In this document: piece after piece, positions 3,670 through 51,669 of the stretch
Position numbering within the stretch: position 1 is the stretch's first letter
Layout: every line of letters begins with the position of its first letter
Assembly (NCBI GenBank): GCA_964658305.1
Contig: OZ210885.1
Location: 4,464,001 to 4,528,000 of the forward strand
Reading direction: 5' to 3'
Length of the DNA: 64,000 bases
Source of the DNA: Leptogorgia sarmentosa
Lineage: Eukaryota
Notes under the pieces: model-generated
What the model saw: the letters and a program-made list of their open reading frames with translations, nothing else
Databases searched by the model: none
Told to the model about the DNA's origin: nothing
Program-made: the position numbers and the translations under genes

Positions 3670-5162
3670 AGTTGTGGTGGGTACCACAACTTAGATCAAA
3701 AGTAAAGAAGTTAATCCACAAATGCAATATCTGCAAGTTGTATTCCACGAAGCCTTGTGGTTCACCATTGACGAGCAACATGCCCAGCTTTAGAACAGAA
3801 ACAGGCAAAGCATTCGAAGTCACAGGGGTTGATTTTGCCGGGCCCATAAGATACAAGATCGCAAAGAATAAAGAAGGAAAATGTTACATATTAATCTTCA
3901 CATGTGCAGCATCTCGTCCGATGCACTTGGAACTAACTAAGAGTCAAGAAGCGGAGGAGTTCCAAAGAAAGCTCAATTTTTTCATCGGACGAAAATGCAG
4001 GCCTCGATTAATGATATCAGACAATGCAGCGACATTTAAAACGACTGCAAAACTAATCAAAGTTATAAGGAAGAGCGAGAAGTTACACGATTTCCTAGCA
4101 ACACAAGATATACACTGGAGATTTAACCTTGCCAGATCTCCATGGTGGGGAGGCATCTATGAGAGATTGATTCGTGAAATAAAGAAGACCTTGTACAAGA
4201 CCCTAGGAAGATTGCACCTTTCATTCGAGAATTTAGAAATGGTTCTTATGGATATTGAAATTAATATGAACAATCGTCCCTTAACCTACGTAGAAAGTGA
4301 GAGTGGGAGGAAGAAGTGCTGACGTCAAATGTTCTGATCCGAGGAAAAAAAACTTATCTTTTGAATGACTTAGAGAACGATGCTGACGAGCTTACGAAGA
4401 TGCAGAGGAGGGTCGTTAAGGCAAAGAACGGCGCTTGGAAAAGATGGCAATGGGAATACATACACAGCGTAATGGAGAGCCAACGAATAACAGAGTAAAT
4501 GGAAAGCCAGTTTGCCCGCCTGAAGTAGGAAAATTAGTTTTAGTTGTGGGAGAAGAAAATAATCGGATTGAATGGAAGAAAGGAAAGTGGTTCGACAAGT
4601 AAAAGGCAAGGATGCTGTGGTGCGTGGTGTGGTGCTGTCTCACAAGGGTCACACTATCGAAAGACCACTACAGTTGGTGTATGTCCACTAGAAATTCGAT
4701 GCACAATGCAAGTAGAAGAATGACAGAACGAAAAGAAACGCGAGGTTGAACCGCAAAGCCTAAGAAAGAAGAGAGGGGAAGCAATGGAAGCAAGAAAGAA
4801 AATACGAGAACGAGGACATTTGACATTTAGTTGAAGTTATAAAAATTAAGTTTAAATTTTTAGGGGAGTAGTATACGGGAACGTTATACAACAGGGGGGC
4901 GGGGCAAGTCTAAATATAGAAATAAGTAATATAGGAGGGCTTTTTGTGAGAGACAGAACTCAACAACGTTGTGAGTTTTGGGAGGATTTATAAATTTTAG
5001 TTTGTAAGTTTATTTTTGGTTTATATTTTGAAATATATAGTATACTTGGGAGCGTGTGATGAGTTCGGTATAGTGGGATAGACTTTTGTAGAATTCGTGT
5101 ATTTTCCCTGGGTTAGATCCGTTGATTACTAGTAGGTTTATGACTTCCCCGATATAGGCGTT
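3670..5162 (+). mobile_element. BEL/Pao 3' part: integrase, post-integrase region, polypurine tract and LTR (about 4906-5162)
   Basis: [26 protein letters not shown] and NNRPLT motifs; GGGGGGCGGGG tract before the LTR; close paralog at 41272-42660. Confidence 0.9.
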
Positions 5163-25918: not shown

Positions 25919-26079
25919 GTTTGTAAAGCTGTGCACTGGGCCAGCTTGTGTTGTACAGAAGCTGGCCTTGTGGCCACGTTGGCCACATCTCCAACACTTT
26001 GATCCTGTTGGGGAAAAAATTTATGGTCAGGAATAAATTGATTTCACTACAATTATACCTGTTGACATAAAAGGACAAA

Positions 26080-26595
26080 CCCTGTGGACATATCTTGACA
26101 CTGGTGCGGGCCGAAATTTTATTTCTCATGAGGCTGTGAAGAAGCTTGGTCTGAATTCAACACATCATGAATCCCGTGACATTGTAACCGTGAGTGGCAC
26201 ATCTACTCAATCCGTGCCTATATTCAAAACAACCATAACTTCTCTTGATGGGAAAGTACAGGAAGAAAGCGAATTAGCTGGTTCTAGGCTCCAGGATTTT
26301 AAGACAGTAAAGAGATCCGTAATGAACGAAGTAAAGATGAAGTATACGCACACTCAAGATAAAAGGTTTTATATGAACGCTAAAGGAGAATATCCAATCC
26401 ATCTCATACTCGGTGATGGAACGTACAGCAGAATCCGAACGGAGAATGTTTATAAAGGAAATCCTGGAGATCCTCTTGTGGAAGAAACAACATTTGGATG
26501 GGTCATTCATGGTGGTGAAGATTACTCGAGCGATGTGTGTGCATGTTCGCTAGAGAAATTAACGATTACGAACAGTTATACAGTCTTGATATTCT
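26080..26595 (+). pseudogene. BEL/Pao protease region, left part of the interrupted host element
   Basis: YLDTGAGRNFIS (aspartic protease DTG), IHLILGD, ETTFGWVIHG; ends EQLYSLDIL at the insertion point. Confidence 0.88.
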
Positions 26596-26610
26596 TCTTA
26601 ATACGTATCC

Positions 26611-27105
26611 CTAAATATTGTTCCTTTAACAATGCCATTTAAAGGTCAATTTCGCATGATTCACGGTCTGCTGCGCATATAACCGTTATTGGGCCAAACC
26701 ACAACATTATACGCATGGTCAATGAAGCGAAAAAATAATTTAAATTTGCAAATACGTGGTAGGAGAAGTGAAAATGTTTCACTATCATGTATGAATATAT
26801 TAAAACATAATATTAGGAACACATGTAAATGAAGGGGTCGTTCCCCTTTTGAAAAGGAACAGGTATTTAAACGGAACACATTGTTCCGTTTCAATTTAAG
26901 TTGTTCCGCACCGCCTATGTTCCGAAATTCGGAACGCTTTAACAAATGTTCATTAAGGAACAATAATAATTGGAGTTCCTTTATTTAGGAACAAAACCTT
27001 CCGCTCTTGCACATATAATAGGTGTTAAAGTGGAACGATTTGTTCCCTTTTCTTGGTCCCTTTTATTGTTCCCTTTGGTTGTTCCCTTTTATTGTTCCCT
27101 TGTGA
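26611..27105. promoter_or_regulatory. GGAAC/GTTCC pentamer cluster, putative protein-binding or origin array
   Basis: About 17 pentamers in both orientations within 500 bp; repeated at about 34380-34665. Function is inferred. Confidence 0.55.
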
Positions 27106-27244
27106 AGGAAGCAATGTCATGAACAATACATCTCTCACAATGCAGTGCCTTAGGCTGTTAATAAGAAAGTCAATTTATGCAGTTTGCATAAGTTGTTGTT
27201 ATAAAAGCCAAGGTACTTTTGATCGCAAACATTTTATCGTTTAT

Positions 27245-28887
27245 ATGTTTGCACGTAGAAAAGCTCAAATAGATTGGAAGTCTGTAGACGGGGCGTTTAC
27301 AAAACCGAGGCGATTGCATTTGGTGAAAGGCAGCGATGGCTTACATCATTGTCCAGTAATAGCTTGTGAACATTCAAGATTTGGCAGTCAAAGAGGCTGT
27401 CGTAAACATGTTAAAACTATACATGCATGATATTACTATTTTGACAAAAGGCCCGAAGTGTGCCTTTCGCCGCTTGCAATCACCGAAACGCAGCGAAGAT
27501 CTGGTAAAGCAGTCCCGGGCTGTTCCACAGATAATGACTTTGCTAGATCGTTTTCAAAATGGCTTCAAAGCAGCTGTGGCGGCGGCAAATCTGCCACACA
27601 ATCGGACGTTTCGGTTAACCGAGCATTAAAGTTCATAAAGTTTTGTTGTGACGAGAATGGCGAGGGCGAAGAAGACGTGCTCAATGCACCTAATCTCATC
27701 GATTACGCCTTGGGGTCTCCACAACTAGTAACAAAGTTTGTGGACGCTCTCAAAGAGAAGTGGTGTATTGGACACTCAGGAGAAATTGGGTATGTCGCAA
27801 GTATTTCTGATTTACTAGATTTTCGCAAATTCAATCGTCCCCCTGCAACGGTGCTTCAAAACTTCGCAGTTACCGAAGTGTATGTAAAGAGAGCGCGAAA
27901 GTATTTAGCCAAAGACATGAGATCAAATTGGACCACCGAACTGGGTATAGAAACCCTCGAATCCCGTAGAAGTTGGGCGACTATTTCCGAAATACAATCC
28001 GTCATTCCATTTCACGAGGACCGTTATAAATCTGTATTAGAAAATTGTATGATATCACCTTCTACAGTCAAAACAGGGGACGTCACATTTGCCACCAGAT
28101 TCGTTGCAGCTTACATGTTCCTCAAAGTGAAAGGTTGCCGCGCAATGACCTACCAACATCTCACCTTGCGAATGTTTGAATGTGCGAAAAGAAATGAAGG
28201 AATAGTGGATCAGAAAGTATTCAAGACCGCTAAAACGTATGGGTTTGACAGTGTTTACTTTGACGAATGCAGCATCCAGTTACTGGAAAAGTATATAGCG
28301 TATGTAAGGCCCCTTCTCACACCCACTTGCGACTATGTGTTGGTGAATCGAAACGGTAAACAGTTCCAAAAACTTTCTAATCTTTTGAGTGTATTGGTGT
28401 TTGAAGCAATAGGAAAATACATTCATCCAACTAGGTACAGACAGATCATCGAAACAGAAAGTGCGCAAGTTCTCCTGCCAAACGAACAGCAGTGGATATC
28501 TGAAGACCAAAAGCATAGCTCCAACATTGCCCGTGTACATTATCAGAAGAAAAGATCCCGTGAAGTGGCCATGAGAGGATGTGAGTGCATGAAAAAATTA
28601 ATTGAGAGAAGTACTAGTTCACAGAGAGAAGATGAGCATGAACAACAGCCCTCGTCTGGCCCCACACATGTTGGCGAAGACACGCCCATCGTTTCCAGCC
28701 CGAAAAAAGCCAAATATACTCGAGGCCCTCGCTTCACAGGTGTGAGGAAGATAACGCCATACGCTTGGGCATTACAAAGTTCGGTTTTTGTTGGACAAGG
28801 ATATTACGCCATCCAGAATATAACTTTCATGCATGTAGACTGGCAAATACTTTAAGAAAGAGGGCGGAAGCCTTGAAATTAGTGTAA
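27245..28887 (+). pseudogene. C2H2 finger - tyrosine recombinase - Myb/SANT protein, copy 1 (546 aa when repaired)
   Basis: CPVIAC..HVKTIH finger; catalytic-like GCR, KTAK, HPTRYR and KHSSNIARVHY; TGA stop at 27428-27430 and 2-bp insertion near 28741 relative to copy 2. Confidence 0.85.
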
Positions 28888-29171
28888 TGATTGCGTGTAA
28901 ACCTTAAATAATTGTAGGTATTATTAGTGTGAATTACATGGGGAAAATGTTGTAAAGAGAAATACAAAAATCAATGTACACCTGCCTATGTGTTATTCTT
29001 TTTCCAACACTCCTTATAATATAATAGTCGTGGAAAGGAACACTACAAAAATCTGTGACATTAAATACATTCACTTTGCATCATCCTTTTGCTTGTATTG
29101 CATGACTCCAGAAATGACAAGAAAGCCTAATTATGACAACTGACAGAACAAATAATGATTGCTTTTATCAA

Positions 29172-29451: not shown

Positions 29452-29453
29452 AA

Positions 29454-31068
29454 GACTGTGAGAAAGAAATAGGTTAGGGTTAGAGTAAGGTTTGGGTGTG
29501 GATTATTTATAAATAACCCCAACCCGGCCCGTAATCTGACCCTAACCTATCAAGAAATAGGTTAGGGTCAGACTACGGGCCGGGTTGGGGTTATTTATTA
29601 ATAACCCTAACCCAGCCCGTAATCTGACCCTAACCTATCAAGAAATAGGTTAGGGTCAGACTATGGGCCGGGTTGGGGTTATTAATAACCCCAACCCGGC
29701 CCGTAATCTGACCCTAACCCATCAAGAAATAGGTTAGGGTCACACAACGGTTTGGGTTGTGATTATGACTTCAATAATCCACACCCAAAACTGACCCTAA
29801 ATTATTGTCCAAATACTTTTACAAACAAGTGCAAACGCAATGTATGCTTCGTTACAACCGTCACAATGTTGTGGTAAAAAATGTTGAAAGTATCGCTTGC
29901 AAAAATTTTCTAAGTAAGTGTCGAGTGTATTTAGTTTTGTCAAAACATGACCGGCTACCCAATATAAATACTAATAAAATCGACCGGCTACCATCTAAAA
30001 TAACCGGCTACCGCCATGTGGTAGCCGGTCGTCAAAAATTTTCTAAGTGTCGAGTGTATTTAGTTTTGTCAAAACTTGACCGGCTACCGGCTACCCAATA
30101 TAAATACTAATAAAATCGACCGGCTACCGACCGGCTACCATCCAAAATAACCGCTACCGCCATGTGGTAGCCGGTCGTCAACAATTTTCTAAGTGTCATT
30201 TGGCAAAATGTTGTAAGTGCCATTACAAACGTTTTGTAAGGATTTAGCAATAGCGTTATAATAATAATAATCTATTAATTAAAATCACATTGCAGTAGAA
30301 CTGAATTACATGATTATATGACAACTTTAAATAGCTACAATAAAATATTTATCGAAGATTAGGACAATGATTAATACACCTATATATACACATTGTGAAG
30401 GCTATAATACTCTAGTAATTGTACTATAATTCTCACCAAAAGTATTTAAAAGTATAAAAAAAGTATAAATGCAATAGAGACTTAGAAAATTTTTGACGAC
30501 CGGCTACCACATGGCGGTAGCCGGTTATTTTGGATGGTAGCCGGTCGATTTTATTAGTATTTATATTGGGTAGCCGGTCATGTTTTGACAAAACTAAATA
30601 CACTCGACACTTAGAAAATTTTTGACGACTGGCTACCACATGGCGGTAGCCGGTTATTTTGGATGGTAGCCGGTCGATTTTATTAGTATTTATATTGGGT
30701 AGCCGGTCATGTTTTGACAAAACTAAATACACTCGACACTTACTTAGAACATTTTTGCAAGCGATACTTTCAACATTTTTTACCACAACATTGTGACGGT
30801 TGTAACGAAGCATACATTGCGTTTGCACTTGTTTGTAAAAGTATTTGGACAATAATTTAGGGTCAGTTTTGGGTGTGGATTATTGAAGTCATAATCACAA
30901 CCCAAACCGTTGTGTGACCCAAACCTATTTCTTGATAGGTTCGGGTCAGACTACGGGCCGGGTTGGGGTTAATAAATAACCCCAACCCGGCCCGTAGTCT
31001 GACCCTAACCTATTTCTTGATAGGTTAGGGTCAGATTACGGGCCGGGTTGGGGTTATTTATTAATAAC
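29454..31068. repeat. Palindrome array plus long inverted repeat (arms about 29590-30195 and 30478-31068)
   Basis: Alternating inverted 40-bp monomers ATAGGTTAGGGTCAGAYTACGGGCCGGGTTGGGGTTAT; inner 130-bp tandem units rich in GACCGGCTACC; ORFs 29805+ and 30433- translate almost identically. Confidence 0.92.
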
Positions 31069-31284: not shown

Positions 31285-33921
31285 TCATCTGGACATCCAG
31301 TTTCTCACACTTTGCCAAAAGCTTACTTGTGGCGCTGTGCTGTATGCCGGGTTGGTCTCATCTCCACTGTCGTCGCCGTCATCATTCTGGACACTCGTAG
31401 CACTCTCCACATTGTCATCCGAGATGGAATGCTCCCCCGCACTGCCATCATCCGCCACACTGCTATCAGGAGCCACACTCGCGTCACCAAGGAGACTCGC
31501 CTCATCAAGGATGCTGGCCTCGGCAAGTACACTGGCGTCACTCTCTCCACTTGCGTAACGTTCGACACTCCCATCTCCCCTACTGCCTTCCTGCTTGGTG
31601 TCTGCGCTGTGCGCTTCTTCCGAGTTTTGGGAGGATGCGTCGTTGTCACTTTCTGGAACGATGGAGGAGAGGATAGTGGACTCTGCATCTGTGTTCTGTT
31701 CCTGCGACGCATTTTGCTCCAGGTCGGAGGGAATGGCTGCATTCGAGGATGAAGTGGTCTCCTCGTGTCTTCTCCTTTTATCACTTCGCCTGGCTACTTT
31801 GCGGGCACGAGCCTCCACGTGAAATGCCGGATGAATGTTGTCATCGTTGCTGTCATGACTCAGTGCTTGTGCGCTCGTGCGCTCGTGCTTGGTGCTTGCA
31901 GATCGGCATCCACAATTCCGGCGATGGCGTCACGCTTCCACAGGGAGGAGGACTTGTTTGCAGTAATGACGTTTCGGCGGCCATTTCCTTCTTCATACCA
32001 CAATTCCTCCGGAGGAATCAGGTGGCGATGGTCGTTAAGTTCGTTGGCTATCCATGCAATGCAGTGCATGGCATTGTTGTATAGCCAACGATCTACGCCT
32101 GGATACACGGAAGGGAGAGAGGTGGTGCGGTATATTTCCACTCGTCTCTTGACGTTCTCGTCGTCCTCGCCGAAGTTTGGCACGTCGTTTGTGGTGATGT
32201 AAAACGGGCTGTTGTTGTTTACACACCTGGGGGCGGCGTGTTTGACAGCCGTGACCATCCAACCGCCTTGAAGCAGGGTCTTCGCCAACTCAGCTGACAT
32301 GTGCACCCTGCTCCACTCGTCGATTATGACCAAACACGTGTCCTCGTTTATCATCGCGGCCGAAAACTGTGCCTCACTTGTCACCGAGACAATGTCTTGC
32401 GCAGGGATGACACGTCGCAATACGTTTGCCCACACCGTTTTACCCGAGTCACGCGGACCAACCAGTACCAGTTTCCGGGTTTTGTGGGGCATGTTGGAAC
32501 CGCAGATGCATTGGTAAAATTGTTCAGGAATGCAATTCTCACGTTCACATCCGGAAACGAATTAACAACGCCTTCTTCGAAGAAGCGCGGGTGTTGGTGG
32601 TGTGGAGGATCGATAGGGCATGAATGCCAGCGGCGAAACCTTGCCGATCTTCTCCGCGGAAATGGCGTCGGGAACGAATGAGCGGCAACTTATCGGGAAG
32701 CAGATTCCTTCAGACACTTCTATGAGGTCGGAATCGAACTCCATCTGCTCCACAAGTTCGCAGGCAGGGTGCGACAGGATTCTTTCGATGGTACTGAAAT
32801 GTCTCATCAGGGCGTCGTTGATGGCCGCGTTGCGAAGTATCTTGTTCAGATATGAGGTCACGTCCATCATTCTCACATAAGTAGCGGTCGCTCCTTCCGC
32901 TTTGCCGTAGATGGCCGAACGATGGAGGGTGTGTTCGCATATTGCCATCATGCGAGAGATCTTCTTTATGGTGCTTGTGACCTCGTTTTCTTTGGGAACG
33001 GATGTCGCCACGTTCGATTGGTGCGAGTGCAAGGTGAGACCATCCGATCGCACTCTGTCCACCGCGGTGTGTATGCCATGCTCGTACCCCTCGTGGTTCA
33101 CAACGGTGAAAACACAGGGCAGGGTTGGGAAGTGCTTCGGTTGGAAGTGCTCGTCTTCATCCTCTGCCTCATCATTCGACGACGACTGCACGTCCTCATA
33201 ACAATGGGCATTGGAGGCATCTAACATCTCCTGCACCGTGGCGTTGTTGTGGTCTTTCACAACCTGGAACAACTGCCGGCGGCAGTGTCCATCTGGTCGT
33301 TGTCCCCCTTCCTCACATTGATTGACTGGAAAAAGAGGACAGGTGTGAGGTGTAAGAAAGTGTGCATCATTTCAACACCTTGGATTGTTAGCTACACATC
33401 TTCAAATTACGTTTACCTTAATATTAGGTTCCAGGTCTTCATTGTGGAGTCGGGCAAAGAACGTGTCCTGATTGCACTCTTCGGATGGGGTGTACACAAT
33501 AAAGTACGCAATCGCGGGATACGCCTCATTCTTGGATTGCCCGGTGCTCGATCGCTTCTCGTTGGTCGATACTGCCGTGATGCAGGAGAAAAAGAAATGG
33601 ACGGATTTCATGCTTTTAATGACGTCATCCAACTTCAAGCGTTTCGACGCAATCTGGAGTGTCACCAACTCAACGTCTTCTTCCCGTACCCGCCATGTAG
33701 CACGGCACACAAGTGCTTTGTAACTTGGTCTTATCTGGTAGGATAGAGACGGATTGACCAATGTCCATGTAAATATTTTATGAACATGTGAATATGCAAT
33801 TTGTAAAAATGTGAGCTCTACATATGTGATTAAATGCACTTACCAAACTTAAAATGTTCGCTCGAAGCGAGTTTTGTATGCGCTTGGAGTCTAACTCCTT
33901 CCGCGGTTTTGGTGGCGGCAT
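31285..33921 (-). pseudogene. Spliced superfamily-3 helicase (Rep-like) gene, copy 1
   Basis: Walker A GPRDSGKT, Walker B IIDE and motif C YITTN; start MPPPKPRKELDSKR; GT-AG introns at 33735-33843 and 33326-33416; several frameshifts; acidic Ser-rich tail. Confidence 0.88.
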
Positions 33922-34807
33922 TTCTGCTCACTTTGCTTTCCTTGCTTTACTTGCTTTACTTTTCTTGACTTTCCTTTCCTTTTCTTCACTGTCCTTTCCT
34001 TGCTTTCCTTTTCTTTCCTTTACTTTCCTTTTCTTCCCTAATAACTTTTCTGAACTTTTTTTTGGAGTGTCACTCGGCGAACGGTGCAATGTTTATGGGC
34101 AAAGTGTAAATCGCGTTCGCTTTTTAAGCGTTTTCATGTACGAAATTTGCATTTGAACAGAAAAGGAACAACATTTAGTACTTGGGTCTTAATAACAATG
34201 CCATTTAAAGGTCAATTTCGCATGATTCACGGTCCGCTGCGCATATAACCGTTATTGGGCCAAACCACAACATTATAGGCATGGTTAATGAAGGGGAAAA
34301 ATAATTTAAATTTGCAAATACGTAGTAGGAGAAGTGAAAATCTTTCACTATCATCTATGAATATATTAAAACATCATGTTAGGAACACATGTAAATGAAG
34401 GGGGAGTTCCCCTTTTGAAAAGGAACAGCAATTTAAACGGAACACATTGTTCCGTTTCAATTTAAGTTGTTCCGAAAATGGGAACGCTTTAACAAATGTT
34501 GATTAAGGAACAATAATAATTGGAGTTCCTTTATTTAGGAACAAAATGTTCCGCTCTTGCAGATATAATATGTGTTAAAGTGGAACGATTTGTTCCCTTT
34601 TGTTGTTCCCTTTTATTGTTCCCTTTGGTTGTTCCCTTTTATTGTTCCCTTTTATTGTTCCCTTGTGAAGGAAGCAATGTCATGAACAATACATCTCTCA
34701 CAATGCAGTGCCTTAGGCTGTTAATAAGAAATTCAATTTATGCAGTTTGCATAAGTTGTTGTTATAAAAGCCAAGGTACTTTTGCTCGCAAACATTTTAT
34801 CGTTTAT

Positions 34808-36446
34808 ATGTTTGCACGTAGAAAAGCTCAAATAGATTGGAAGTCTGTAGACGGGGCGTTTACAAAACCGAGGCGATTGCATTTGGTGAAAGGCAGCGAT
34901 GGCTTACATCATTGTCCAGTAATAGCTTTTGAACATTCAGGATTTGGCAGTCAAAGAGGCTGTTGTAAACATGTTAAAACTATACATGCATGGTATTACT
35001 ATTTTGACAAAAAGCCCGAAGTGTGCCTTTCGCTGCTTGCAATCACCGAAACGCAGCGAAGATCTGGTAAAGCAGTCCCGGGCTGTTCCACAGATAATGA
35101 CTTTGCTAGATCGTTTTCAAAATGGCTTCAAAGCAGCTGTGGCGGCGGCAAATCTGCCACACAATCGGACGTTTCGGTTAACCGAGCATTAAAGTTCATA
35201 AAGTTTTGTTGTGACGAGAATGGCGAGGGCGAAGAAGACGTGCTCAATGCACCTAATCTCATCGATTACGCCTTGGGGTCTCCACAACTAGTAACAAAGT
35301 TTGTGGACGCTCTCAAAGAGAAGTGGTGTATTGGACACTCAGGAGAAATTGGGTATGTCGCAAGTATTTCTGATTTACTAGATTTTCGCAAATTCAATCG
35401 TCCCCCTGCAACGGTGCTTCAAAACTTCGCAGTTACCGAAGTGTATGTAAAGAGAGCGCGAAAGTATTTAGCCAAAGACATGAGATCAAATTGGACCACC
35501 GAACTGGGTATAGAAACCCTCGAATCCCGTAGAAGTTGGGCGACTATTTCCGAAATACAATCCGTCATTCCATTTCACGAGGACCGTTATAAATCTGTAT
35601 TAGAAAATTGTATGATATCACCTTCTACAGTCAAAACAGGGGACGTCACATTTGCCACCAGATTCGTTGCAGCTTACATGTTCCTCAAAGTGAAAGGTTG
35701 CCGCCCAATGACCTACCAACATCTCACCTTGCGAATGTTTGAATGTGCGAAAAGAAACGAAGGAATAGTGGATCAGAAAGTATTCAAGACCGCTAAAACG
35801 TATGGGTTTGACAGTGTTTACTTTGACGAATGCAGCATCCAGTTACTGGAAAAGTATATAGCGTATGTAAGGCCCCTTCTCACACCCACTTGCGACTATG
35901 TGTTGGTGAATCGAAACGGTAAACAGTTCCAAAAACTTTCTAATCTTTTGAGTGTATTGGTGTTTGAAGCAATAGGAAAATACATTCATCCAACTAGGTA
36001 CAGACAGATCATCGAAACAGAAAGTGCGCAAGTTCTCCTGCCAAACGAACAGCAGTGGATATCTGAAGACCAAAAGCATAGCTCCAACGTTGCCCGTGTA
36101 CATTATCAGAAGAAAAGATCCGGTGAAGTGGCCATGAGAGGACGTGAGTGCATGAAAAAATTAATTGAGAAGTAATAGTTCACAGAGAGAAGATGAGCAT
36201 GAACAACAGCCCTTGTCTGGCCCCACACATGTTGGCGAAGACACGCCCATCGTTTCCAGCCCGAAAAAAGCCAAATATACTCGAGGCCCTCGCTTCACAG
36301 GTGAGGAAGATAACGCCATACGCTTGGGCATTGCAAAGTTCGGTTTTTGTTGGACAAGGATATTACACCATCCAGAATATAACTTTCATGCATGTAGAGT
36401 GGCAAATACTTTAAGAAAGAGGGCGGAAGCCTTGAAATTAGTGTAA
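34808..36446 (+). pseudogene. C2H2 finger - tyrosine recombinase - Myb/SANT protein, copy 2
   Basis: YR domain open (GCRP, HPTRYR, KHSSNVARVHY); a 2-bp deletion near 36168 separates the Myb domain RFTGEEDNAIRLGIAKFGFCWTRIL..LRKR. Confidence 0.88.
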
Positions 36447-36730
36447 TGATTGCGTGTAAACCTTAAATAATTGTTGGTATTATTAGTGTGAATTACATGG
36501 GGAAAATGTTGTAAAGAGAAATACAAAAATCAATGTACACCTGCCTATGTGTTATTCTTTTTCCAACACTCCTTATAATATAATAGTCGTGGAAAGGAAC
36601 ACTACAAAAATCTGTGACATTAAATACATTCACTTTGCATCATCCTTTTGCTTGTATTGCACGACTCCAGAAATGACAAGAAAGCCTAATTATGACAACT
36701 GACAGAACAAATAATGTTGGGTTTCATCAA

Positions 36731-37012
36731 GACTGTGAGAAAGAAATAGGTTAGGGTTAGAGTGAGGTTTGGGAGTGGATTATTTATAAATAACCCCAAC
36801 CCGGCCCGTCGTCTGACCCTAACCTATTTCTTGACAGGTTAGGGTCAGATTACGGGCCGGGTTGGGGTTATTAATAACCCCAACCCGGCCCGTAATCTGA
36901 CCCTAACCTATTTCTTGATAGGTTAGGGTCAGCTTACGGGCCGGGTTGGGGTTATTAATAAATAACCCCAACCTGGCCCGTAGTCTGACCCTAACCTATT
37001 TCTTCATGATAG
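36731..37012. repeat. Palindrome array of unit 2
   Basis: Same 40-bp monomer in alternating orientation as at 29454; lacks the inner long inverted repeat. Confidence 0.92.
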
Positions 37013-37566
37013 TCTTTCTAAAAGTGGACATTATGTGAATGTGTAGTCAAGGTTTTTTCCTTCCTACTCAGGGGATCTTTCTCTAACTGTTGCCCTTCCC
37101 AGCTGTAATTAGACAAATGCCATTAACACACATATTTTAATTGAAATAATTATAAGTCATAGTGCACATAACGCACTAGAAAAATGTAAGGTTAATAAGT
37201 TGAGATTACATGAAATTTGTTCACAGTCACAGCGTTCAATAACATTGTTCGTACACTAATGGGTTGTTACACACTTTGAATCAACGATGATTTAATATAT
37301 TACAACACTTCTTCATAATCATATAATATAGAAAGGATTTAAACAACAGCAGCCTGGATAACGGTGTCATCTGCAGGCGAACGGATTTCATAGGTAATGC
37401 CAATGGATTTGAAATGGGATATTTCATGCAGATTTCCCTTCAATTTTCAATGGAAGTTCAGGAAACGAAATGCTTATTCAATTGTTTCGTTGCGGAAGTT
37501 TTTGGGCAATGTACATAAAATAAGATGAAGGGAATCGGCTTGTATTCATGCACACTGACAATTGTT

Positions 37567-40025
37567 TCAACCCCACCAGTTTCGAATGGTTGTCCAGTAC
37601 GATGGTTGGTTCTCACGATGTTCAACTTGAACAGGGGATTCTCCGGAAACATCTGGGGTGTCGGTGGTGGTTTGTTGTGATAGACCAGCTTCTGTTTGTG
37701 CAGTTGAAGTTGATGGTTGAAGGTCGGATTCCGCTAATGCAGTGGGCGACGGAGGAACATTCGGTGTGGAAAAAGTTTCTTCTGATTCGCGACTGGTGTG
37801 TTCCAGGTGGTGAGCAGGTGCAATTGTGGGACCTTCGCTATTGGACGTATAAGAATCGTTCCCATCTCCTGTCATTGCGGGTGTGGTTGGTGTTGATGGC
37901 GACCGCAAGCTTTCCGTGGGTTTGGGAGAGGTCACTACATTTGGCTGATGCTCCTCGTCAGACGAACTGGCGGTGGAATTTACTGGCCTCGCACGTGGTC
38001 GTTTCCTCATCATGCGTCTCCTTCTTGCTTCCATCGTGAAGCTCGCATGGATTGTGTCATGTGTGGTGGTGGGTTGGGTAGCGGACTCACCATGAAGATC
38101 AGCGTCGGTGATCTGTACAATCTCCCGTCTGTGCCACGGAGTGGGGGTGAGTGACTTAAAGTGTGCTCGTCCTCATACCAGCGCTCCTCCGGATGGATGA
38201 GGTGGCGATGCCTAGTTATCTCCTCGGCGGCCCACGCGATGCAGTCCATCGCGTGATCGTACATCCACTGGTAAGCGTCAGGTGTTATGGTTGGGAGGGA
38301 GGAGGTGGTGAAGTTCTCAACTCTCCGTTGGACATTTGTGTTCTCTTCATCAAAGTCCGGCACTGCATTGGTGGTGATGTAAAACGGGCTGTGGCAAGTT
38401 ACGTGTCTTGGTTGGGCGTGCTTTACCGCAGTTACTAACCAACCGCCTTGCAGGATGGTCTTCGCGAGATCGGCGGACATTGTGTTTGCACACCATTCGT
38501 CAATGATGACGAGTTGGGTGTCCTCCTTGATCATGGCAGCTGAAAATTGGCGCTCGTTCGTGATGGATGCGATGTACTGGGGTGGAACTATGCGTTGAAG
38601 GATACGTGCCCACGAGGTTTTGCCGGAATCGCGAGGTCCTGCGACAACCAATTTTCGCGTCTTCTGAGGGATTTTCTGCGCGAGTAGGCACTGGTAAAAT
38701 TTATTCATGAAGTTCGTGCGCACGTCGACATCGGGAAAGGAATTGTAGAGCCCTTGGCGAAAGTATAGAGGTTGAGGTGGTGTGGAGGAGTCGTAGGGTA
38801 TGTACGCTCGCGGCGACAACTTGCCAATGCTTGCTTCTTGGATGGCATTTGCTATGAAGGCTCGACTGCAAATAGCAAAACAAACACCGTTGGACACTTC
38901 AATAAGGTTGAAGTCAAAGGCTAGCTGCTCGATGATCTCGCACGCCGGATGGGACAGTATGGTTTGGACACTTTTCATATTTTTGACCAGCTGCTGATTG
39001 ATAGCGTCGTTGACAAGCAGTTTGTTTAAATAGCTGCCAACGTCCATGAGCCGTGTGTAGGTGAATTGCGCTCCATCGGGAGTTGCATAAATGTCACCAC
39101 GGTACAGGGCGTGTTTCGACAGGTGCATAACCCGTTCCACCTTGCGGATGGTGGATATCACATCTGTGGACGGTGAGTCAGACGAACGTGGGTGGAAGTT
39201 TGGGCGCGGTGTAGTTTCCACAACCAGGCCATCAGATTGGGTCCTCTCTATTGCAGCGTCAAATTCCTCGAGATAACCTTCGTGATTTACGATGACGAAA
39301 CAACAAGGAGAGGTTGGAAAATGGACCGGGCAAAATTCCTCCTCTGACTACTCGTCTTCCTCCTCCTCGCTTTCACTGGACGCAGCGGGTGCATTGCTAT
39401 AGCAGTAGGTGTTGGACGCGTTCAGCATTTCCTGCACGGACGGATTGTTATGATCTTTCACCGTCTGGAAGAGCTGTCTAGCTGCAGTTTCCAGATCCGG
39501 CTTTCCGCGGGTGCGCACCCTGATCGGCGTTATTTCTGGCTCCACGTCCTGATTGTGCAATGCAGCAAAAAAGGTCCCCTCGTGGCATTTGTCGCTGCTT
39601 TCGTAGACGATGAAGAATGCCACACAAGGATAGGTGTCGTCGTCGTTTGTGTTGCTGCTTTGCCCCTTCTTCGTGTTCGCATTGGAAGAGACGGCAGATA
39701 TGGCCGAGAAAAAGAAAGCCACACCTTCGATTGCTTCTATCACCTCGTTGAGCTGCAGACGTTTGGAGGCAATTTGTAACGTAGCCTGTTCAATGTTCTC
39801 AGAAGGAACTCGCCATGTAGCGCGACATGCGACCGCTCGATGTTTAGGTTTAAGCTAATGCAAAATAAATGCGATATTATTTAGGTTGCATATACGTCGG
39901 GTACATAGGTTTTTGCCAAAATGTAGATAAAGAATGTCATGGGAACTTACCAAGCTCAAAACATTTGCGCGCAGAGAGTTTTGCAGGCGTTTCGAATCTA
40001 GTTCTTTTCTTGGCTTCGGCGGCAT
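37567..40025 (-). pseudogene. Spliced superfamily-3 helicase (Rep-like) gene, copy 2
   Basis: GPRDSGKT, IIDE and YITTN; start MPPKPRKELDSKR; intron at 39855-39950; in-frame TAG at 39348 and a frameshift near 38150. Confidence 0.88.
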
Positions 40026-40392
40026 TTTGCAAGAGAACTAATTGTTGTGTGCACTTGCAAGAGAACTTGTTGTGTGCACTGAACGGAAATGTTGAATGAA
40101 TTTATATGTTTTGCTATGATGGTATTAACATTTTCGCAAATTACCGCCTCCCGGATATGAATCTGCGAAAAATCACCCTCAAATTTTGAATATAAAAGAT
40201 ATATTATAACAACCACTCGCTTCTCTCAAAAACCCTCTCTCTAAAATATATTACAACCACATGTAAAATAACCCTTCCCATTGGCTGCCCGCTAGTTGCT
40301 CTACTTCCGGTCCCGCGACCTTGGCAACTTCCACATTTTTTTCTCAGCCAATTTCCAACAAACATAGGGAACAATATTTAGTACTTGGGTCT

Positions 40393-40530
40393 AGTTGAAG
40401 ATCGTGGTGAAAACGACCAAATGCAAGTCCTTTCAGAATTTCGGGAAAGCATAACCAGGCAAGAAGATGGCAGATACCAGGTTAGCATTCCGTGGATTCC
40501 TGGCAGTAAGTTGACAACTACAAATGGTCA
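40393..40530 (+). pseudogene. Continuation of the interrupted BEL/Pao pol
   Basis: VEDRGENDQMQVLSEFRESITRQEDGRYQVSIPWIPG is homologous to GVVESNKIHDEFVESITFNGSRYSVKLPW in the 18169 ORF. Confidence 0.85.
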
Positions 40531-41271: not shown

Positions 41272-42660
41272 TCAACATGCCCAGCTTTAGAACAGAAACA
41301 GCCGAAGCATTCGAAGTCACGGGGGTTGATTTTGCCGGGCCCTTAAGAGACAAGATCGCAAAGAATAAAGAAGGAAAATGCTACATATTAATCTTCATGT
41401 GTGCAGCATTTCGTGCGGTGCACTTGGAACTAACTAAGAGTCAAGAAGCGGAGGAGTTCCAAAGAAAGCTCAATTCTTTCATCGGACGAAGAGGAGGCCT
41501 CGATTAATGATATCAGACAATGCAGCGACATTTAAAACGACGGCAAAACTAATCAAAGTTATAAGGAAGAGCGAGAAGTTACACGATTTCCTAGCAACAC
41601 AAGATATACACTGGAGATTTAACCTTGCCAGGTCTCCATGGTGGGGAGGCATCTATGAGTGATTGATTCGTGAAATAAAGAAGACCTTGTACAAGACCCT
41701 AGGAAGATCGCACCTTTCATTCGAGAATTTAGAAATGGTTCTTATGGATATTGAAATTAATATGAACAATCGTCCTTTAACCTACGTAGAAAGTGAGAGT
41801 GGGGAGGAAGAAGTGCTGACGCCAAGTGTTCTGATCTGAGGAAAAAACACTTGAATGACTTAGAGAACGATGCTGACGAGCTTACGAAGATGCAGAGGAC
41901 GGTCGTTAAGGCAAAGAACGACGCTTGAAAAAGATGGCAACGGGAATACGTACACAGCCTAATGGAGAGCCAGTTAGCCCGCCTGAAGTAGGAGAAATAG
42001 TTTTAGTCATGGGAGAAGAAAAGAATAGGAGTGAATGGAAGAAAGGAAAAGTGGTCCGACAAGTAAAAGGCAAGGATGGTGTGCTGTCTCACAAGGGTCA
42101 CACTATCGAAAGACCACTACAGTTGGTATGTCCACTCGAAATTCGATGCACAACGCAAGTAGAAGAAAGCCAGAACGAAAAGAAACGCGAGGTTGAACCG
42201 CAAAGCTTAAGAAAAAGAGGGGCAGCAATGGAAGCAAGAAAGAAAATATGAGAACAGGCAGAGAACGAGGATGAACTGTAGATAAGGACATTTGACACTG
42301 AGTTGAAGTTATAAAAATTAAGTTTAAATTTTTAGGAGAGTAATATACGGGAACGTTAAGATATAAACAACAGGGGGGCGGGGCAAGTCTAAATATAGAA
42401 ATGAGTAATATAGGAGGGCTTTTTGTGAGAGACAGAAGAACAACAACATTGTGGGTTTTGGGAGGATTTATAAATTTTAGTTTGTAAGTTTATTTTTGGT
42501 TTATATTTTGAAATATATAGTATACTTGGGAGTGTGTGATGAGTTCGGTATAGTGGGATAGACTTTTGTAGAATTCGTGTATTTCGTAGAATTCGTGTAT
42601 TTTCGCTGGGTTAGATCCGTTGATTACTGGTAGATTTATGACTTCCCCGATATAGCCGTT
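41272..42660 (+). mobile_element. BEL/Pao 3' part: integrase, polypurine tract and LTR
   Basis: GVDFAGP and following integrase motifs; highly similar to 3775-5162. Confidence 0.9.
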
Positions 42661-44188: not shown

Positions 44189-44902
44189 TTATACACTTGA
44201 GTCAGAATATACCGTAGTACTCGATCCTGAAGATGAACTCGTGGTGAAGTTCGTCGATATAATTTCGTCAGTATTCTGATGTCGATCTCGCCAACAGCAA
44301 CATAAAAAACGCTTTAGTCTTATAATGGTATATATTAGTAACAGAGTGAAGACGAACGTTGAAAGGGATATCGCTATTTCTCGGGATCTGTTGTGTGTTT
44401 GGGATTTGATATTATTTGGGTGGTGAGTAGTGGTGTAGAATAACTGATCTGTAATTAATGAAGGTTTCTTGTGGTATGGAGTTGAGGGTGAAGTTTTGTA
44501 GCTACGATGAGTGGGCATTGTCGAAGAATCTGCGCGTGTTGATAATTGCGGTGTATGAATATCGGATGTTGGCGTCGAATAGCAGTCACTTTTGACTTCA
44601 ACCTTCTTCAATGTTTTTATTTTACCGCATACTTGTGGATTCTGACGCAGGTCGATCACATTCTTGTATGCTGAGATAGTTTCATCGTCGATCCAGGTTA
44701 TGTTGTTCCCTCTCAGATCCAAGGTTACGACCACATCGTGTTCATCGATAAACGGAATCTTTTCGAGAGAACACCCCACACAATCCAATAGTAGGATACT
44801 TTTAATGTATTTACAGCAACTGTGATTGCCAGAAACTTTGTTTAAAAATAAAATAAAAAGTAAAATGCTGAGAAACTCTATTGAATACATCTTTCTGTTC
44901 AC
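44189..44902 (-). CDS. Single-pass membrane protein with short LRR ectodomain and Ser/Thr stalk
   Basis: Hydrophobic N-terminus, LDCVGCSLEKIP cap, LDLRGNNIT and IDLRQNP repeats, TM IAISLSTFVFTLLLIYTII; open 237-aa frame. Confidence 0.7.
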   Translation of the reverse strand: MNRKMYSIEFLSILLFILFLNKVSGNHSCCKYIKSILLLDCVGCSLEKIPFIDEHDVVVTLDLRGNNITWIDDETISAYKNVIDLRQNPQVCGKIKTLKKVEVKSDCYSTPTSDIHTPQLSTRADSSTMPTHRSYKTSPSTPYHKKPSLITDQLFYTTTHHPNNIKSQTHNRSREIAISLSTFVFTLLLIYTIIRLKRFLCCCWRDRHQNTDEIISTNFTTSSSSGSSTTVYSDSSV

Positions 44903-45015
44903 GACGCGAGAAACACCTTATAGCACAAAGTGTCAAATATGAAAAGCACGCGTACTCTCATACCGCCGGGCGATTTCAGATCAAACTTATAATCATTTGT
45001 CACTTACTCATCGCC

Positions 45016-45720
45016 ATGGCTAGTCAGTTTTATCTTACTTTACCATCAAACAGTTCAATGGAATATTTTCCAGGCAATACTCTGACAAATTTTAAAACTA
45101 AACTTGCACAACCCATTGAACTAACAGGGGATTGGGAGGTGGCTCTTTCTGAATTCCAGTACCCTCGTAGCTGGTATAATTTACGCGATTTTGATAATCA
45201 TATCTACTACGATAGCGGTGGACAGGATATCTATTCGACAAGTGTTATCCCCCATGGGTACTACCCAACCATTAAAGAGTTTGTTGCGGCTGTAAATAAA
45301 ACGTTAAAGACAGAAGGGCATGGAGATATTTGGCTAACATACAATAAAATAACCCGCAAAATCACGGTACATGTAAAAAGTAAGGCAAAGTTGGCTTTAG
45401 CTGGTCGCTTTGCGAGTATGATTGGATTTGAGGAGAAAGAGGTAGTTATAACGAGGAAAACAGAAGCTCCACTACCCGTCGATTTAGAAGCTGGATTTCA
45501 CGCCATGTATTTGTACACAGATATTGTTGAACCACAGTTAGTAGGGGATACTAAAGTTTCCTTGTTGAAAGTAAATGTTAGTTTTCCAAATCTTCAATAC
45601 GTTCCAGTGAATGTAAAGTCATTTGAGACCGTTGAAATAGATATAAAGGATGACACACACATTTCAGACAGAGAAGATCTCCTCTATTTATATAACCATG
45701 AGACAAACATTTATACCTGA
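45016..45720 (+). pseudogene. Polinton minor capsid (penton-like) protein
   Basis: FYLTLPSNSS..LTGDWEVALSE and LYTDIVEPQLVGD motifs; the C-terminus looks internally deleted. Confidence 0.75.
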
Positions 45721-46195
45721 CGCAAACGATTGCAAAATGATTTTGTTTGAAAAATCAGAATGGTGGGACCCTTTCCGGTTTCCATGGGGCTATAGAATAG
45801 AGCGGGGGTATGGACTTGGTAGTTTTTTCAAGAGTATTGCTCGTGTTGCCATACCTTTGGTGAAGAAGGGTGTAAACGCAATTGGTAAAAAGGCAATAGA
45901 AACCGCTGTAAATGTTGGCCAAGACGTACTAGCAGGGAAACGTGTAAAACAAGCAGTCACAAGCAGAGGGCGACAAGCTGTGAGCGATTTAGCAAAGCAG
46001 GGCGTGAATAACGTCAAAAACCAAATTGGGTGCGGTTCTAAGAGGAAGCGAGCAAATCGGTCAGGCCCTTTAAGAACTGGTTCTCAAAGGAAAGTTGTAA
46101 TTTCTACTCAAACAAGTAAGCGGAGAACATCACCATTGGATACACAAGAGAACATTTTTGCTAGTCCACCTACTAAGAAACGGCGCAAGCGATAA
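45698..46195 (+). pseudogene. Polinton small basic protein with N-terminal amphipathic helix
   Basis: RGYGLGSFFKSIARVAIPLVKKG, basic tail PPTKKRRKR; lies between the two capsid-like genes. Confidence 0.6.
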
Positions 46196-46199
46196 ATAC

Positions 46200-47445
46200 C
46201 CTACATAAAGATTCATGCGGCTGCGGAAAATCAGAACTCGAATTATTTACAGTACCACCTACACAGATTGAAATGAACAAAGGTTTTTGGGAAAGTGTTG
46301 ATCCTGTTGCAAGCGTTCAAACCTCTGACACTATTGAATTTCTTTGTTCTGCTAACCCCGACGTCTACACAGACCTGGCGAATAGCTACCTTCACGTGAA
46401 AGCGAAAATAACAAGGGCGAATGGTGCTAACCTAGAGGTTGACGAACAAGTAGGGCCCGTGAACCTGTGGTTGCATGCAATGTTTTCTCAAGTTGAAGTT
46501 TTCTTGAACAATAAACTTGTTACACCATCAAGCACGGCGTATCCCTACAGAGCGTACTTAGAAACCGTATTAAATTTCAGTAAAGACGCCAAATCATCTC
46601 AGCTAACGTCCGCGTTGTTTTACAAGGACAAAGCTGGGAAAATGGACTCTGTGAATCCTATGGCAGATGACGATAATGTGAATACCGGACTAAAAGATCG
46701 CTATAACCATTCGAAGGAAAGCAAAATGGTTTCCATGGAGGGAAAAATTCACTCTGACCTTTTTGCCCAAGAACGTTACATTTTAGGTGGGGTTCCTATT
46801 AAGCTCAAGCTTGTGCGATCAAGTGCAGCGTTTTCGCTGGTGTCTTCAGTCGATCCAGCTGCCTACAAAGTCGTGATAGAAGATTGTGTCTTCCGTGTGA
46901 GTCAATGTTTCTTCTACCGTCATGATCGGTCATACAGAAGTCCTGAAACATACCACGGCAAAGTATCCCATCAACAGAGTCGAATGCAAAGTGTTTTCCG
47001 CTCCGAGAGGAAACTATTCTGGAAATCAACCCAATATCTTTCAGGGACAATTGCCTGATAGAATTGTCATCGGCATGGTTGATTCCACGGCTTTCAATGG
47101 GTCCTTCAGGAAGAATCCGTTTAATTTTAAAAACTACGATATGACCTATCTTGGACTAACCGTAAATGGGGAGCATTTGCCTAGCAAACCACTTCAGATG
47201 AAATTTGGTGTCGAACAAGGGGCCAACTACGTATCGGCGTTTCAAACATTGTATGCTGGTGCGAATAAGCTGTTTCAGAACGAAGGTAATGGCATCTCGC
47301 GCGACGAGTACCCTAACGGTTACACATTGTTCGTGTTTGATCTGACAGCCGATCTTTGTTCAAGAGATCATCTACAACCTATTAAAAACGGCAACGTCTC
47401 ACTGGAAGTTCAGTTTGGTACAGCTCTTAACTGGGCTATAAAGCT
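46200..47445 (+). pseudogene. Polinton major capsid (hexon-like) protein, frameshifted and truncated
   Basis: KSELELFTVPPTQ, YPYRAYLETVL, KNPFNF and GYTLFVFDLT motifs. Confidence 0.85.
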
Positions 47446-47797
47446 ATTAACTTGGGCACTTACTGAGATGTAAAATGTTAAAATTGATTGCCTAAACTTT
47501 CGTATTAGAAGACTACACTTTACATTCTATCGGGGCAAACATTGCAACGTTATATTAACATGCTGCTGTTTTGAATATTTTTCGAAATGTAATGGCACAT
47601 TTACTGGGATTTATACTGCGCAATGCAACTGCAATACTGCGAGAGATAATTTACAGAATCGCAACTTCTAATTAGACGAAATAACACGCTGAGATTTATA
47701 TTGCGCAGTACAACCACAATACTACGAGATCAAGTTTACGGTACGGTACGTCATCACAAAAAAATTTAACAAACTTAACTTAACTTAACAAACTTAA

Positions 47798-50840: not shown

Positions 50841-51109
50841 CTACTCTGGGGTCTAAACTCGCCCAAACTCGCCTAAACTCGCAGCATATTGAAAGGATCT
50901 TTTACCCTTAACTCGCCCAAACTCGCCTTACTTAACTCGCCTTAACTTACAATTATTTAACAACTATTATTACTTATGACAAGTTTTCAAACACCATGGC
51001 ACAATTAATGTGGCAATAGTTTTTATCAATGAATGAACACCTGAGCTTGTGCGCAAAGGCATTATATTAAAACAGAAGCAACCTCATTAACAACATGCTT
51101 TGAGTACTA

Positions 51110-51669
51110 CAGGGTGTCTCAAAAAAAGGTAATCGAACTTTGGCATGCCATTGTGCGTTAATTACTGGGTGTACGAACGTGATTTTTGCATGGTCATAAA
51201 TTTCAAGGTGTTAGCAGTTGAATGACATATTTCTTGTACGATATGGAAGAAAATCAGGCAAATGCGAGCGTGTTGGAAAATCTCGGTGAAAAACGCATTC
51301 TTTCACCTCTGTGCCTAATTAAAGCAGTGCCATGCGAATGTGTCATGGTAACAAAGATTTTATCAGGATTATTAATAATTATGCATAATCAGGTCGATTG
51401 TTGAAGGGAAGGTCCTCATCTTCGAGTCCGAGGGAGTTAATTTTGAATAAGTTTAGCTGCAATTCTCAGAGGTGAAAGAATGCGTTTTTCACCGAGATTT
51501 TTCAACACGCTCGCATTTGCCTGATTTTCTTCCATAGCGAACAACAAATATGTCATTCAACTGCTAAGACCTTGATCTTTATGACCATGCGAAAATCACG
51601 TTCGTACACCCAGTAATTAACGCACAATGGCATGCCAAAGTTGGATTACCTTTTTTTTGAGACACCCTG
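51110..51669. mobile_element. Tc1/mariner-type MITE with inverted arms of about 200 bp
   Basis: CAGGGTGTCTCAAAAAAAGGTAATC termini with TA flanks. Confidence 0.92.

What the first reader, a model, noticed from the sequence alone, without database searches (positions are those of the whole stretch)
26581..26630. Exact insertion site: removing the element restores the host BEL frame, with a 3-bp TCT core
Seen: the left junction is GATATTCT-TCT-TAATA, the internal junction (34181-34194) is CTTGGG-TCT-TAATA, and the right junction (40384-40400) is CTTGGG-TCT-AGTTGAAG. Joining the flanks at one TCT gives an open frame, LYSLDILLVEDRGENDQMQVLSEF. The BEL paralog at 18169 has LETLGVVES here, so the empty site may have read LGV and the core bases may come from the element. 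Inference: crossover at a very short core as tyrosine recombinases perform, not a DDE-type target duplication.
Basis: partly seen in the sequence, partly recalled or inferred. Interest (0 to 1): 0.8.

Follow-up and report, generated by a model that had tools for sequence, protein, structure and literature searches.

The report
Coral transposon swaps host's three bases
In what is likely a soft-coral genome, a 14-kb double jumping element that carries a predicted DNA-swapping enzyme (tyrosine recombinase) and a predicted virus-like helicase has the same three letters, TCT, at all three of its joints, and it likely replaced three host letters instead of duplicating them, a way of inserting best known from bacterial elements.

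Summary
The three TCT junctions are real (26596, 34187, 40390). Both flanks belong to one BEL family and lie in register. TCT is probably not host sequence: 46 of 49 scorable intact BEL relatives have Gly at that codon and none has Leu, so the empty site read NGG. Three host bases were likely replaced, and nothing was duplicated.

The insert is a 13.8-kb head-to-tail pair. Each unit carries a tyrosine recombinase (R-K-H-R-H-Y conserved; Xer/Cre-like model) and an SF3 helicase, and the outer ends carry a 14-bp subterminal inverted repeat. Public runs give the same ends at other sites: 3 of 5 other host junctions read TCT, one TTA, one TCG. One run holds an intact right-end|TCT|left-end joint. 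A distant relative (L003) is a similar dimer in a microsatellite with three different 3-bp cores, one of them the host's.

Best reading: a Crypton(V)-like recombinase integrates a circle across a roughly 3-bp overlap that tolerates mismatch, like Tn916/CTnDOT coupling sequences (0.72). No empty allele was seen as DNA, and CryptonV membership could not be tested. New variant of a known kind; interest 0.6.

The parts
26037..26595 (+). Host BEL/Pao retroelement, left flank (protease region up to ...LYSLDI; changes frame near 26540)
   Evidence: Pfam aspartyl protease E 8.5e-8; 86% identity to intact BEL polyproteins
26596..26598 (+). Left core TCT
   Evidence: same boundary in other insertions
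26599..26628 (+). Intact left end; 14-bp subterminal inverted repeat at 26611-26624
27245..28884 (+). Tyrosine recombinase gene of unit 1 (in-frame stop near 27430; frame change near 28740 before the Myb-like tail)
   Evidence: 96.7% DNA identity to unit 2 over 26627-29171
29452..31068 (.). Palindromic hairpin block of unit 1, between the convergent recombinase and helicase genes
31285..33839 (-). SF3 helicase gene, type A (interrupted by stops)
   Evidence: Pfam DUF5906 E 4.5e-7, PPV_E1_C E 4.7e-5; tblastn
34165..34186 (+). Right end of unit 1 (inverted-repeat copy with 1 mismatch at 34165-34178)
34187..34189 (+). Internal core TCT (right end | left end joint)
34190..34206 (+). Left end of unit 2, lacking 25 bp that include the inverted repeat
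34808..36443 (+). Tyrosine recombinase gene of unit 2 (R299, K327, H394, R397, H424, Y433; frame change near 36170 before the Myb-like tail)
36708..37037 (.). Palindromic hairpin block of unit 2
   Evidence: z -22.6
37567..39854 (-). SF3 helicase gene, type B, with a possibly Rep/E1-like N-terminal domain (interrupted)
40132..40365 (.). Later 234-bp nested insert with an AACAT duplication (40127-40131 and 40361-40365); polymorphic between runs
40368..40389 (+). Right end of unit 2; 14-bp inverted repeat at 40368-40381
40390..40392 (+). Right core TCT
40393..40523 (+). Host BEL, right flank (VEDRGENDQMQVLSEF...)
   Evidence: another repeat starts near 40524

Best explanation
The 13.8-kb insert is a head-to-tail pair of related elements, each encoding a predicted tyrosine recombinase and a predicted SF3 helicase, and it likely integrated from a circular form by strand exchange across a roughly 3-bp overlap, so that the element's TCT likely replaced three different host bases with no duplication. 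Shown: the ends, the three TCT cores, the 14-bp subterminal inverted repeats, the same boundaries at other sites, variable cores (TTA, TCG), and an intact right-end|TCT|left-end joint. Inferred: the recombinase binds the subterminal repeats, excises a circle whose joint reads right end-TCT-left end, and exchanges strands with a target that need not match fully. The mismatched overlaps are then fixed by repair or replication, usually to TCT and sometimes to the host triplet. At this BEL site both overlaps ended as TCT, either in one event or through excision and re-entry; the dimer shows that at least two events are recorded here. Further inferred and untested: the helicase copies the circle, which would explain tandem arrays and why TCT dominates.
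For: Empty site: 46 of 49 scorable BEL relatives have Gly, 2 Arg, 1 Glu and 0 Leu at this codon (66 examined). Only 0.1-6% of TCT sites in a copy 2-15% diverged would have arisen by two changes. Other junctions shown in the loose-end tables: left TCT (X6), TCT (X2), TTA (X2); right TCT (X6, X1), TCG (X6, X2). Right end joined to an intact left end across one TCT in X3. Recombinase: R, K, R, H, Y invariant in 42 of 42 aligned relatives and the first H in 38 of 42; the best structural matches are XerA, XerD and XerH at Z 10.5-11.3, with tyrosine-recombinase-family domains filling the top 20 ranks. Independent relative L003 (51% recombinase identity): head-to-tail dimer with a 13-bp subterminal inverted repeat, inserted in a (TTTCTCTC)n microsatellite; after a shared TC its cores read TCT (left), CTA (internal) and TTT (right, the microsatellite's own). 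It also has a helicase N-terminal remnant in the same orientation, E 5.5e-11. Precedent: Tn916 Int needs no homology between coupling sequences and makes heteroduplexes (PMC5812530, passage); IntDOT uses a conserved dinucleotide plus a variable coupling sequence (PMC2817482, passages).
Against: No empty allele was seen as DNA in the 5 runs laid (4 per junction); the host triplet is inferred from proteins of relatives up to 86% identical. A single heteroduplex event would leave one host core after replication, so TCT on both sides needs extra repair or a second event. 5 of 7 host-facing junctions read TCT, which also fits a TCT target preference. The flank sample is small and unpaired: 18 loose ends and 2 were not shown, and three X4 contigs gave an unresolvable mixed consensus. 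Typical tyrosine recombinase spacers are 6-8 bp with arms next to them (PMC3212892, passage); here the 14-bp repeats lie 23 bp apart. Foldseek gave no recombinase match at E <= 0.001 (best 5e-3), and Pfam gave none for the window proteins. The X3 joint may be an integrated tandem, not a circle. Both window recombinase copies are broken.
Confidence: 0.72

Rival explanations
1. Classical Crypton/DIRS model: the recombinase needs an identical TCT in the target. This BEL copy had already drifted to TCT, and the TTA and TCG junctions are later mutations.
For: 5 of 7 host-facing junctions read TCT. The model is published for DIRS (3-bp joint recombining with an identical genomic triplet; PMC3266345, passage) and observed for CryptonF (CACCG end, CAYCG target; PMC9977147, passage). 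The BEL copy is decayed.
Against: It needs two adjacent changes in a codon that is Gly in 46 of 49 relatives, an estimated 0.1-6% of such sites. TTA differs from TCT at two of three positions. L003 has three different cores, one equal to the host's.
Confidence: 0.17
2. The helicase protein's Rep-like N-terminal domain nicks and inserts single strands, as in Helitrons or Replitrons; the recombinase only resolves multimers.
For: The N-terminal 200 residues of P0188 are nearest to CRESS Rep and papillomavirus E1 DNA-binding clusters (scores 0.86-0.87, a lead only). Head-to-tail arrays occur. The left junction starts TC, and the BEL right junction happens to read CTAG.
Against: CTAG is not kept at other right junctions, and the base before TC is T, C or A. 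In 29 of 120 helicase relatives that hold the domain, no His-x-His pair is conserved; the conserved His residues lie 35 apart. In L003 the recombinase frame is nearly open while the helicase is a remnant. The Helitron end rules are recalled, not from a call.
Confidence: 0.07
3. DDE cut-and-paste insertion with a 3-bp TCT target duplication.
For: A 3-bp direct repeat flanks the insert.
Against: No terminal inverted repeat at the very ends. No DDE family among the 13 element ORFs scanned. One TCT, not two, at head-to-tail joints. The host triplet was probably not TCT. Junctions with TTA or TCG exist.
Confidence: 0.03

Closest known systems
CryptonV (Kapitonov and Jurka 2012, Repbase Reports; known here only through a passage and the reference list of PMC8869645)
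   Same: Tyrosine-recombinase DNA transposon; named relatives are cnidarian; relative L003 sits in a microsatellite, as reported for some CryptonV families.
   Different: The window's copy sits in BEL coding sequence, and its other flanks differ from each other. It carries an SF3 helicase, which the passages seen do not mention. No CryptonV sequence was available to compare.
CryptonF/S/A/I (PMC3212892: passages, section 8, supplement 1; PMC9977147 and PMC13465315: passages)
   Same: Recombinase without reverse transcriptase; no terminal inverted repeats; short direct repeat at the ends; a circular intermediate is proposed.
   Different: Their repeats are 4-6 bp (5-9 in supplement 1) and match the target; here the core is 3 bp and probably did not match. 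Animal CryptonA/I have no C-terminal domain and no terminal repeats; this family has a Myb-like tail (30 of 42 members). The second genes listed for Cryptons are a DDE transposase, a peptidase or an HTH protein, not a helicase.
DIRS1-like retrotransposons (PMC3266345, PMC7192593: passages)
   Same: 3-bp circular junction, no target duplication; their table shows ends with one mismatch (for example ATT/AAT).
   Different: No reverse transcriptase or long inverted terminal repeats here; the DIRS model assumes an identical target triplet.
Tn916 and CTnDOT coupling sequences (PMC5812530, PMC2817482: passages)
   Same: A tyrosine recombinase exchanging across a mismatched overlap; the variable core is carried from site to site.
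   Different: Bacterial conjugative elements with 5-6 bp coupling sequences and transfer genes; this is a mechanistic analogue only.
Polinton-like viruses and RepE1 cressviruses (PMC11131425 passage; PMC11071296 section 12)
   Same: Helicase plus tyrosine recombinase in some PLVs; E1-like Rep sequences endogenised in sea anemones.
   Different: No capsid or packaging gene was recognised inside the 6-7.6-kb units, and 4 scans of viral contigs found no relative.

Membership tests
Crypton (broad sense) | Encodes a tyrosine recombinase with R-K-H-R-H-Y | tested here: met
   ESM Atlas lead to Phage_integrase at 0.88, 15% of members
Crypton (broad sense) | No reverse transcriptase | tested here: met
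   No RT family among the 13 element ORFs scanned
Crypton (broad sense) | No terminal inverted repeats or long terminal direct repeats | tested here: met
   Ends are not complementary; only a subterminal 14-bp repeat
Crypton (broad sense) | 4-6-bp direct repeat at both ends | tested here: not met
   The shared core is 3 bp: bases on either side vary between insertions. L003 can be read as TC plus 3 variable bases.
Crypton (broad sense) | Direct repeat matches the target sequence | tested here: inconclusive
   Protein relatives point to a non-matching target, but no empty allele was seen as DNA
CryptonV | Recombinase clusters with Repbase CryptonV proteins | not testable with these tools
   No Repbase sequences held; review not held
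CryptonV | Cnidarian host | tested here: inconclusive
CryptonV | Microsatellite-specific insertion (some families) | tested here: inconclusive
   Met by relative L003; not by the window's copy. One X2 flank looks like a short tandem repeat.
CryptonA / CryptonI | No C-terminal domain and no terminal repeats; DUF3504 for CryptonA | tested here: not met
   Myb-like tail in 30 of 42 members and no DUF3504 hit in any; definition from PMC3212892 section 8
DIRS1-like | 3-bp circular junction without target duplication | tested here: met
DIRS1-like | Reverse transcriptase/RNase H, long inverted terminal repeats and internal complementary region | tested here: not met
DDE cut-and-paste transposon | Terminal inverted repeats, DDE transposase, duplication of host bases | tested here: not met
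Helitron / Replitron | HUH nuclease motifs and fixed 3' CTRR end (end rule recalled) | tested here: not met
   No conserved His-x-His; right junctions differ after TC
Polinton-like virus | Capsid and packaging ATPase genes | tested here: inconclusive
   None recognised by Pfam among 13 element ORFs; small ORFs were not folded

The most novel reading that the evidence does not exclude
A self-copying animal DNA element: a Crypton-like tyrosine recombinase paired with a Rep/E1-like SF3 helicase replicates as circles, swaps helicase modules between subfamilies through tandem dimers, and integrates without needing target homology, overwriting three host bases as bacterial Tn916/CTnDOT do. It would be a capsid-less link between Cryptons and small DNA viruses, and the first animal case of coupling-sequence transposition that I could find.
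Probability: 0.4. Interest if true: 0.8.

Novelty: new variant of a known kind. Interest (0 to 1): 0.6.

Why it matters
Published models for eukaryotic tyrosine-recombinase elements (DIRS, CryptonF, Starships) assume recombination with a matching target, and animal Crypton ends have mostly stayed undefined. An insertion into a conserved coding sequence gives a rare readout of the original target, and it points to replacement of host bases. If that holds, the short direct repeats of such elements cannot be read as target motifs. The insertion also gives exact ends and candidate binding sites for an abundant coral family (1076 recombinase relatives), which makes the mechanism directly testable. 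The linked helicase offers a concrete answer to how Crypton-like elements gain copies although they excise, a puzzle raised in PMC9977147.

Tried and rejected
No whole genome is held for this window, so flanks came only from public-run contigs. Four scans of viral contigs with the recombinase, the helicase and their alignments found no relative. The one metagenome scan, with a degenerate end pattern, gave a single match with no similarity to the window, taken as chance. The genome-contig scan gave 4 loci; only L003 was long enough to show ends.

The paralog at 18169 is too distant to give the DNA of the empty site. No run showed a clean empty site. X2 had no cover over most of the BEL flanks and X4 none over the right one, which proves nothing. 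Foldseek on the recombinase model gave no hit at E <= 0.001. The helicase N-terminal domain was not folded alone and is barely tested. The profile search of protein representatives with the helicase alignment had not left the queue, so the family's full range is open. Four look-ups of earlier scan findings returned nothing.

A tblastn of L003 missed the helicase remnant; the profile search found it. The CTTGG shared by the element's right end and the expected host site is 4 bases out of register with the crossover and was set aside as chance. By eye I saw no target consensus beyond the core in 7 flanks; this was not tested statistically.

Eight literature searches listed no paper describing a Crypton with an SF3 helicase or target-base replacement in animals. 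Repbase Reports and one review could not be read, and bioRxiv supplements are closed; these may already describe it.

Full report
Observation. The three junction strings occur once each, with TCT at 26596, 34187 and 40390. They delimit two head-to-tail units of 7,588 and 6,200 bp, 13,791 bp between the outer cores. The right ends share 24 of 25 bases. A 14-bp inverted repeat lies 12 bp inside the left core (26611-26624) and 8 bp inside the right core (40368-40381); 1 of 3000 random window pairs reached that length. The very ends are not complementary. The internal left end has lost 25 bp including this repeat, so only the outer ends are complete. The left junction is bridged by contigs in runs X3 and X6 and the right one in X1 and X6, from two studies. 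X5-X7 may be the window's source sample, so X1 and X3 are the independent support.

The host site. Both flanks belong to one BEL family: 15 of 17 residues left and 38 of 42 right match the same intact relative. Between the last full left codon and the first full right codon there is room for exactly two codons, so no host length was gained or lost. Of 66 BEL relatives, 49 could be scored at the second codon: 46 Gly, 2 Arg, 1 Glu, 0 Leu. Among the 17 unscored rows the printed stretch shows Gly in 9 and Trp in 1, and is uninformative in 7. Keeping one TCT would give Leu there. The host triplet in register with the core was therefore most likely NGG, and it is absent from both junctions. If the element needed TCT, this copy must have changed two adjacent bases first; at 2-15% divergence only 0.1-6% of TCT sites arise that way (a rough model). 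No clean empty allele was seen as DNA.

Other insertions. Element depth in the runs is roughly 10-20 times that of the BEL flank (the tool warns that this is not a copy number). The loose ends shown at the left boundary give two new flanks with TCT, one with TTA in place of the core, and in X3 the unit-1 right end joined across one TCT to an intact left end (18 loose ends not shown). At the right boundary they give one new flank with TCT (X6, X1), one with TCG (X6, X2) and three unresolved X4 contigs (2 not shown). So 5 of 7 host-facing junctions read TCT, or 3 of 5 without the BEL site (chance 5e-5). The bases outside the triplet vary, which bounds the shared core at 3 bp. Left and right flanks cannot be paired.

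Genes. The + strand ORF has 1076 relatives at E <= 0.001; the named ones among the 120 listed are from an octocoral and a stony coral, so the host is likely an octocoral (inference). Pfam does not recognise it. R299, K327, R397, H424 and Y433 are invariant in 42 of 42 aligned sequences and H394 in 38. The model (mean pLDDT 80) matches XerA (Z 11.3, rmsd 11.4, 272 aligned), XerD (Z 11.2, rmsd 4.4, 161 aligned) and XerH (Z 10.5) best; Foldseek agrees in rank but only at E 5e-3. 30 of 42 relatives end in a Myb-like domain. Both window copies change frame before it, and unit 1 has an internal stop. The - strand gene is an SF3 helicase: Pfam PPV_E1_C/DUF5906, D5/SaPI primase-helicase at E about 1e-9, AAV2 Rep40 at Z 13.6. 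Its N-terminal part is nearest to CRESS Rep and E1 DNA-binding clusters at 0.86-0.87, a lead only, and lacks a conserved His-x-His in 29 of 120 relatives holding the domain. Four contig lengths are shared between the two lists of 120 relatives (compared by eye), weak indirect evidence of linkage elsewhere.

An independent relative. L003 (51% recombinase identity) has the same plan: head-to-tail dimer, 13-bp subterminal inverted repeat, TTGTTCC repeats before the recombinase, hairpins after it, and a helicase N-terminal remnant on the - strand (E 5.5e-11). It sits in a (TTTCTCTC)n microsatellite, so its target can be read from the repeat. After a TC shared by host and element, the cores are TCT (left), CTA (internal) and TTT (right), the last being the microsatellite's own. 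That is the pattern expected when a mismatched overlap is exchanged and one junction keeps the host bases. It is one locus, and microsatellites mutate fast.

Mechanism. Shown: ends, cores, subterminal repeats, variable cores and head-to-tail joints. Inferred: excision to a circle, exchange across a short overlap without full homology, and fixation of the mismatches mostly to TCT (0.72). The bacterial precedent is Tn916, whose integrase needs no homology between coupling sequences and creates heteroduplexes (PMC5812530, passage), and IntDOT, with a conserved dinucleotide plus variable coupling bases (PMC2817482, passages). The weak points are that TCT on both sides needs extra repair or a second event, that TCT dominance also fits a target preference, and that typical spacers are 6-8 bp (PMC3212892, passage); the true overlap may be longer than the visible core. 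A role for the helicase in copying circles is untested. The dimer may come from insertion of one circle at the other's end, or from recombination through the shared 97% arm; the data do not separate these. Rivals: matching TCT target (0.17), Rep-type strand transfer (0.07), DDE duplication (0.03).

Comparison. It works like a Crypton or DIRS element in using a recombinase and a short core without duplication (PMC3212892, passages, section 8 and supplement 1; PMC3266345 and PMC7192593, passages; PMC9977147 and PMC13465315, passages). It fails the 4-6-bp repeat feature and the CryptonA/I definition. The cnidarian relatives and the microsatellite target of L003 point to CryptonV (PMC8869645, passage and reference; PMC5753468, passages), but no CryptonV sequence could be compared, so I do not file it there. 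PLVs can pair a helicase with a recombinase (PMC11131425, passage), and E1-like Reps are endogenised in anemones (PMC11071296, passages and section 12), but no capsid gene was recognised here. PMC3706591 (passages) added nothing. Eight searches listed no description of this gene pair or of target-base replacement in animals; Repbase Reports, one review and bioRxiv supplements were not readable.

Verdict. Observation confirmed; interpretation supported and sharpened. This is a new variant of a known kind, with exact ends and a testable, unexpected insertion rule. Interest 0.6; the most novel reading has probability 0.4 and interest 0.8.

Noticed in passing
window 26521 / 40461, run X1 (record 5): One 208-nt contig joins the BEL left flank directly to the right flank at a shared GAAGAT, lacking the element and about 70 bp of BEL on each side. 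The same run also holds the element|BEL right junction. This is an imprecise-excision or deletion allele, or a deleted paralog.
   Followed up: partly
window 26627-29171 vs 34193-36730; 31990-32788 vs 38170-38968: The two units share the recombinase arm at 96.7% but the helicase arm at only about 65%, with the switch at the hairpin block. This suggests module swapping between subfamilies; X4 shows a further right-arm type.
   Followed up: partly
window 29452-31068 and 36708-37037; L003 10910-12020: Near-perfect hairpins lie just downstream of the recombinase gene in both units and, with unrelated sequence, in L003. They may be intrinsic (an origin?) or nested miniature elements. The window's hairpins carry telomere-like CCCTAA motifs, and the family's Myb tail best matches MYB21 and TRF1/TRF2 domains.
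   Followed up: partly
window 27040-27100 and 34590-34665; L003 7459-8217: Tandem repeats containing TTGTTCC upstream of the recombinase gene in both loci; the same heptamer is part of the subterminal inverted repeat, so these may be extra binding sites.
   Followed up: no
window 40132-40365: A 234-bp nested insert with a 5-bp AACAT duplication; present in some run contigs, absent in others, and found at other loci.
   Followed up: partly
L003 3349-12409: A coral-like dimer in a bacterial genome record, most likely host contamination. Unit A has a left end and a helicase remnant, unit B the recombinase; the whole lies in a (TTTCTCTC)n microsatellite.
   Followed up: yes
window 44872-47473: Four + strand ORFs that recall polinton/adintovirus penton, core and capsid genes. 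The label is from memory; Pfam found nothing.
   Followed up: no
window 3776-5162 vs 41273-42660: Two copies of a BEL integrase region at 88% identity; whether the right one belongs to the interrupted BEL was not tested.
   Followed up: no
window 57701-59094, 51091-51686, 60172-60655: Further palindromic elements, one with 31-bp tandem repeats in both arms.
   Followed up: no
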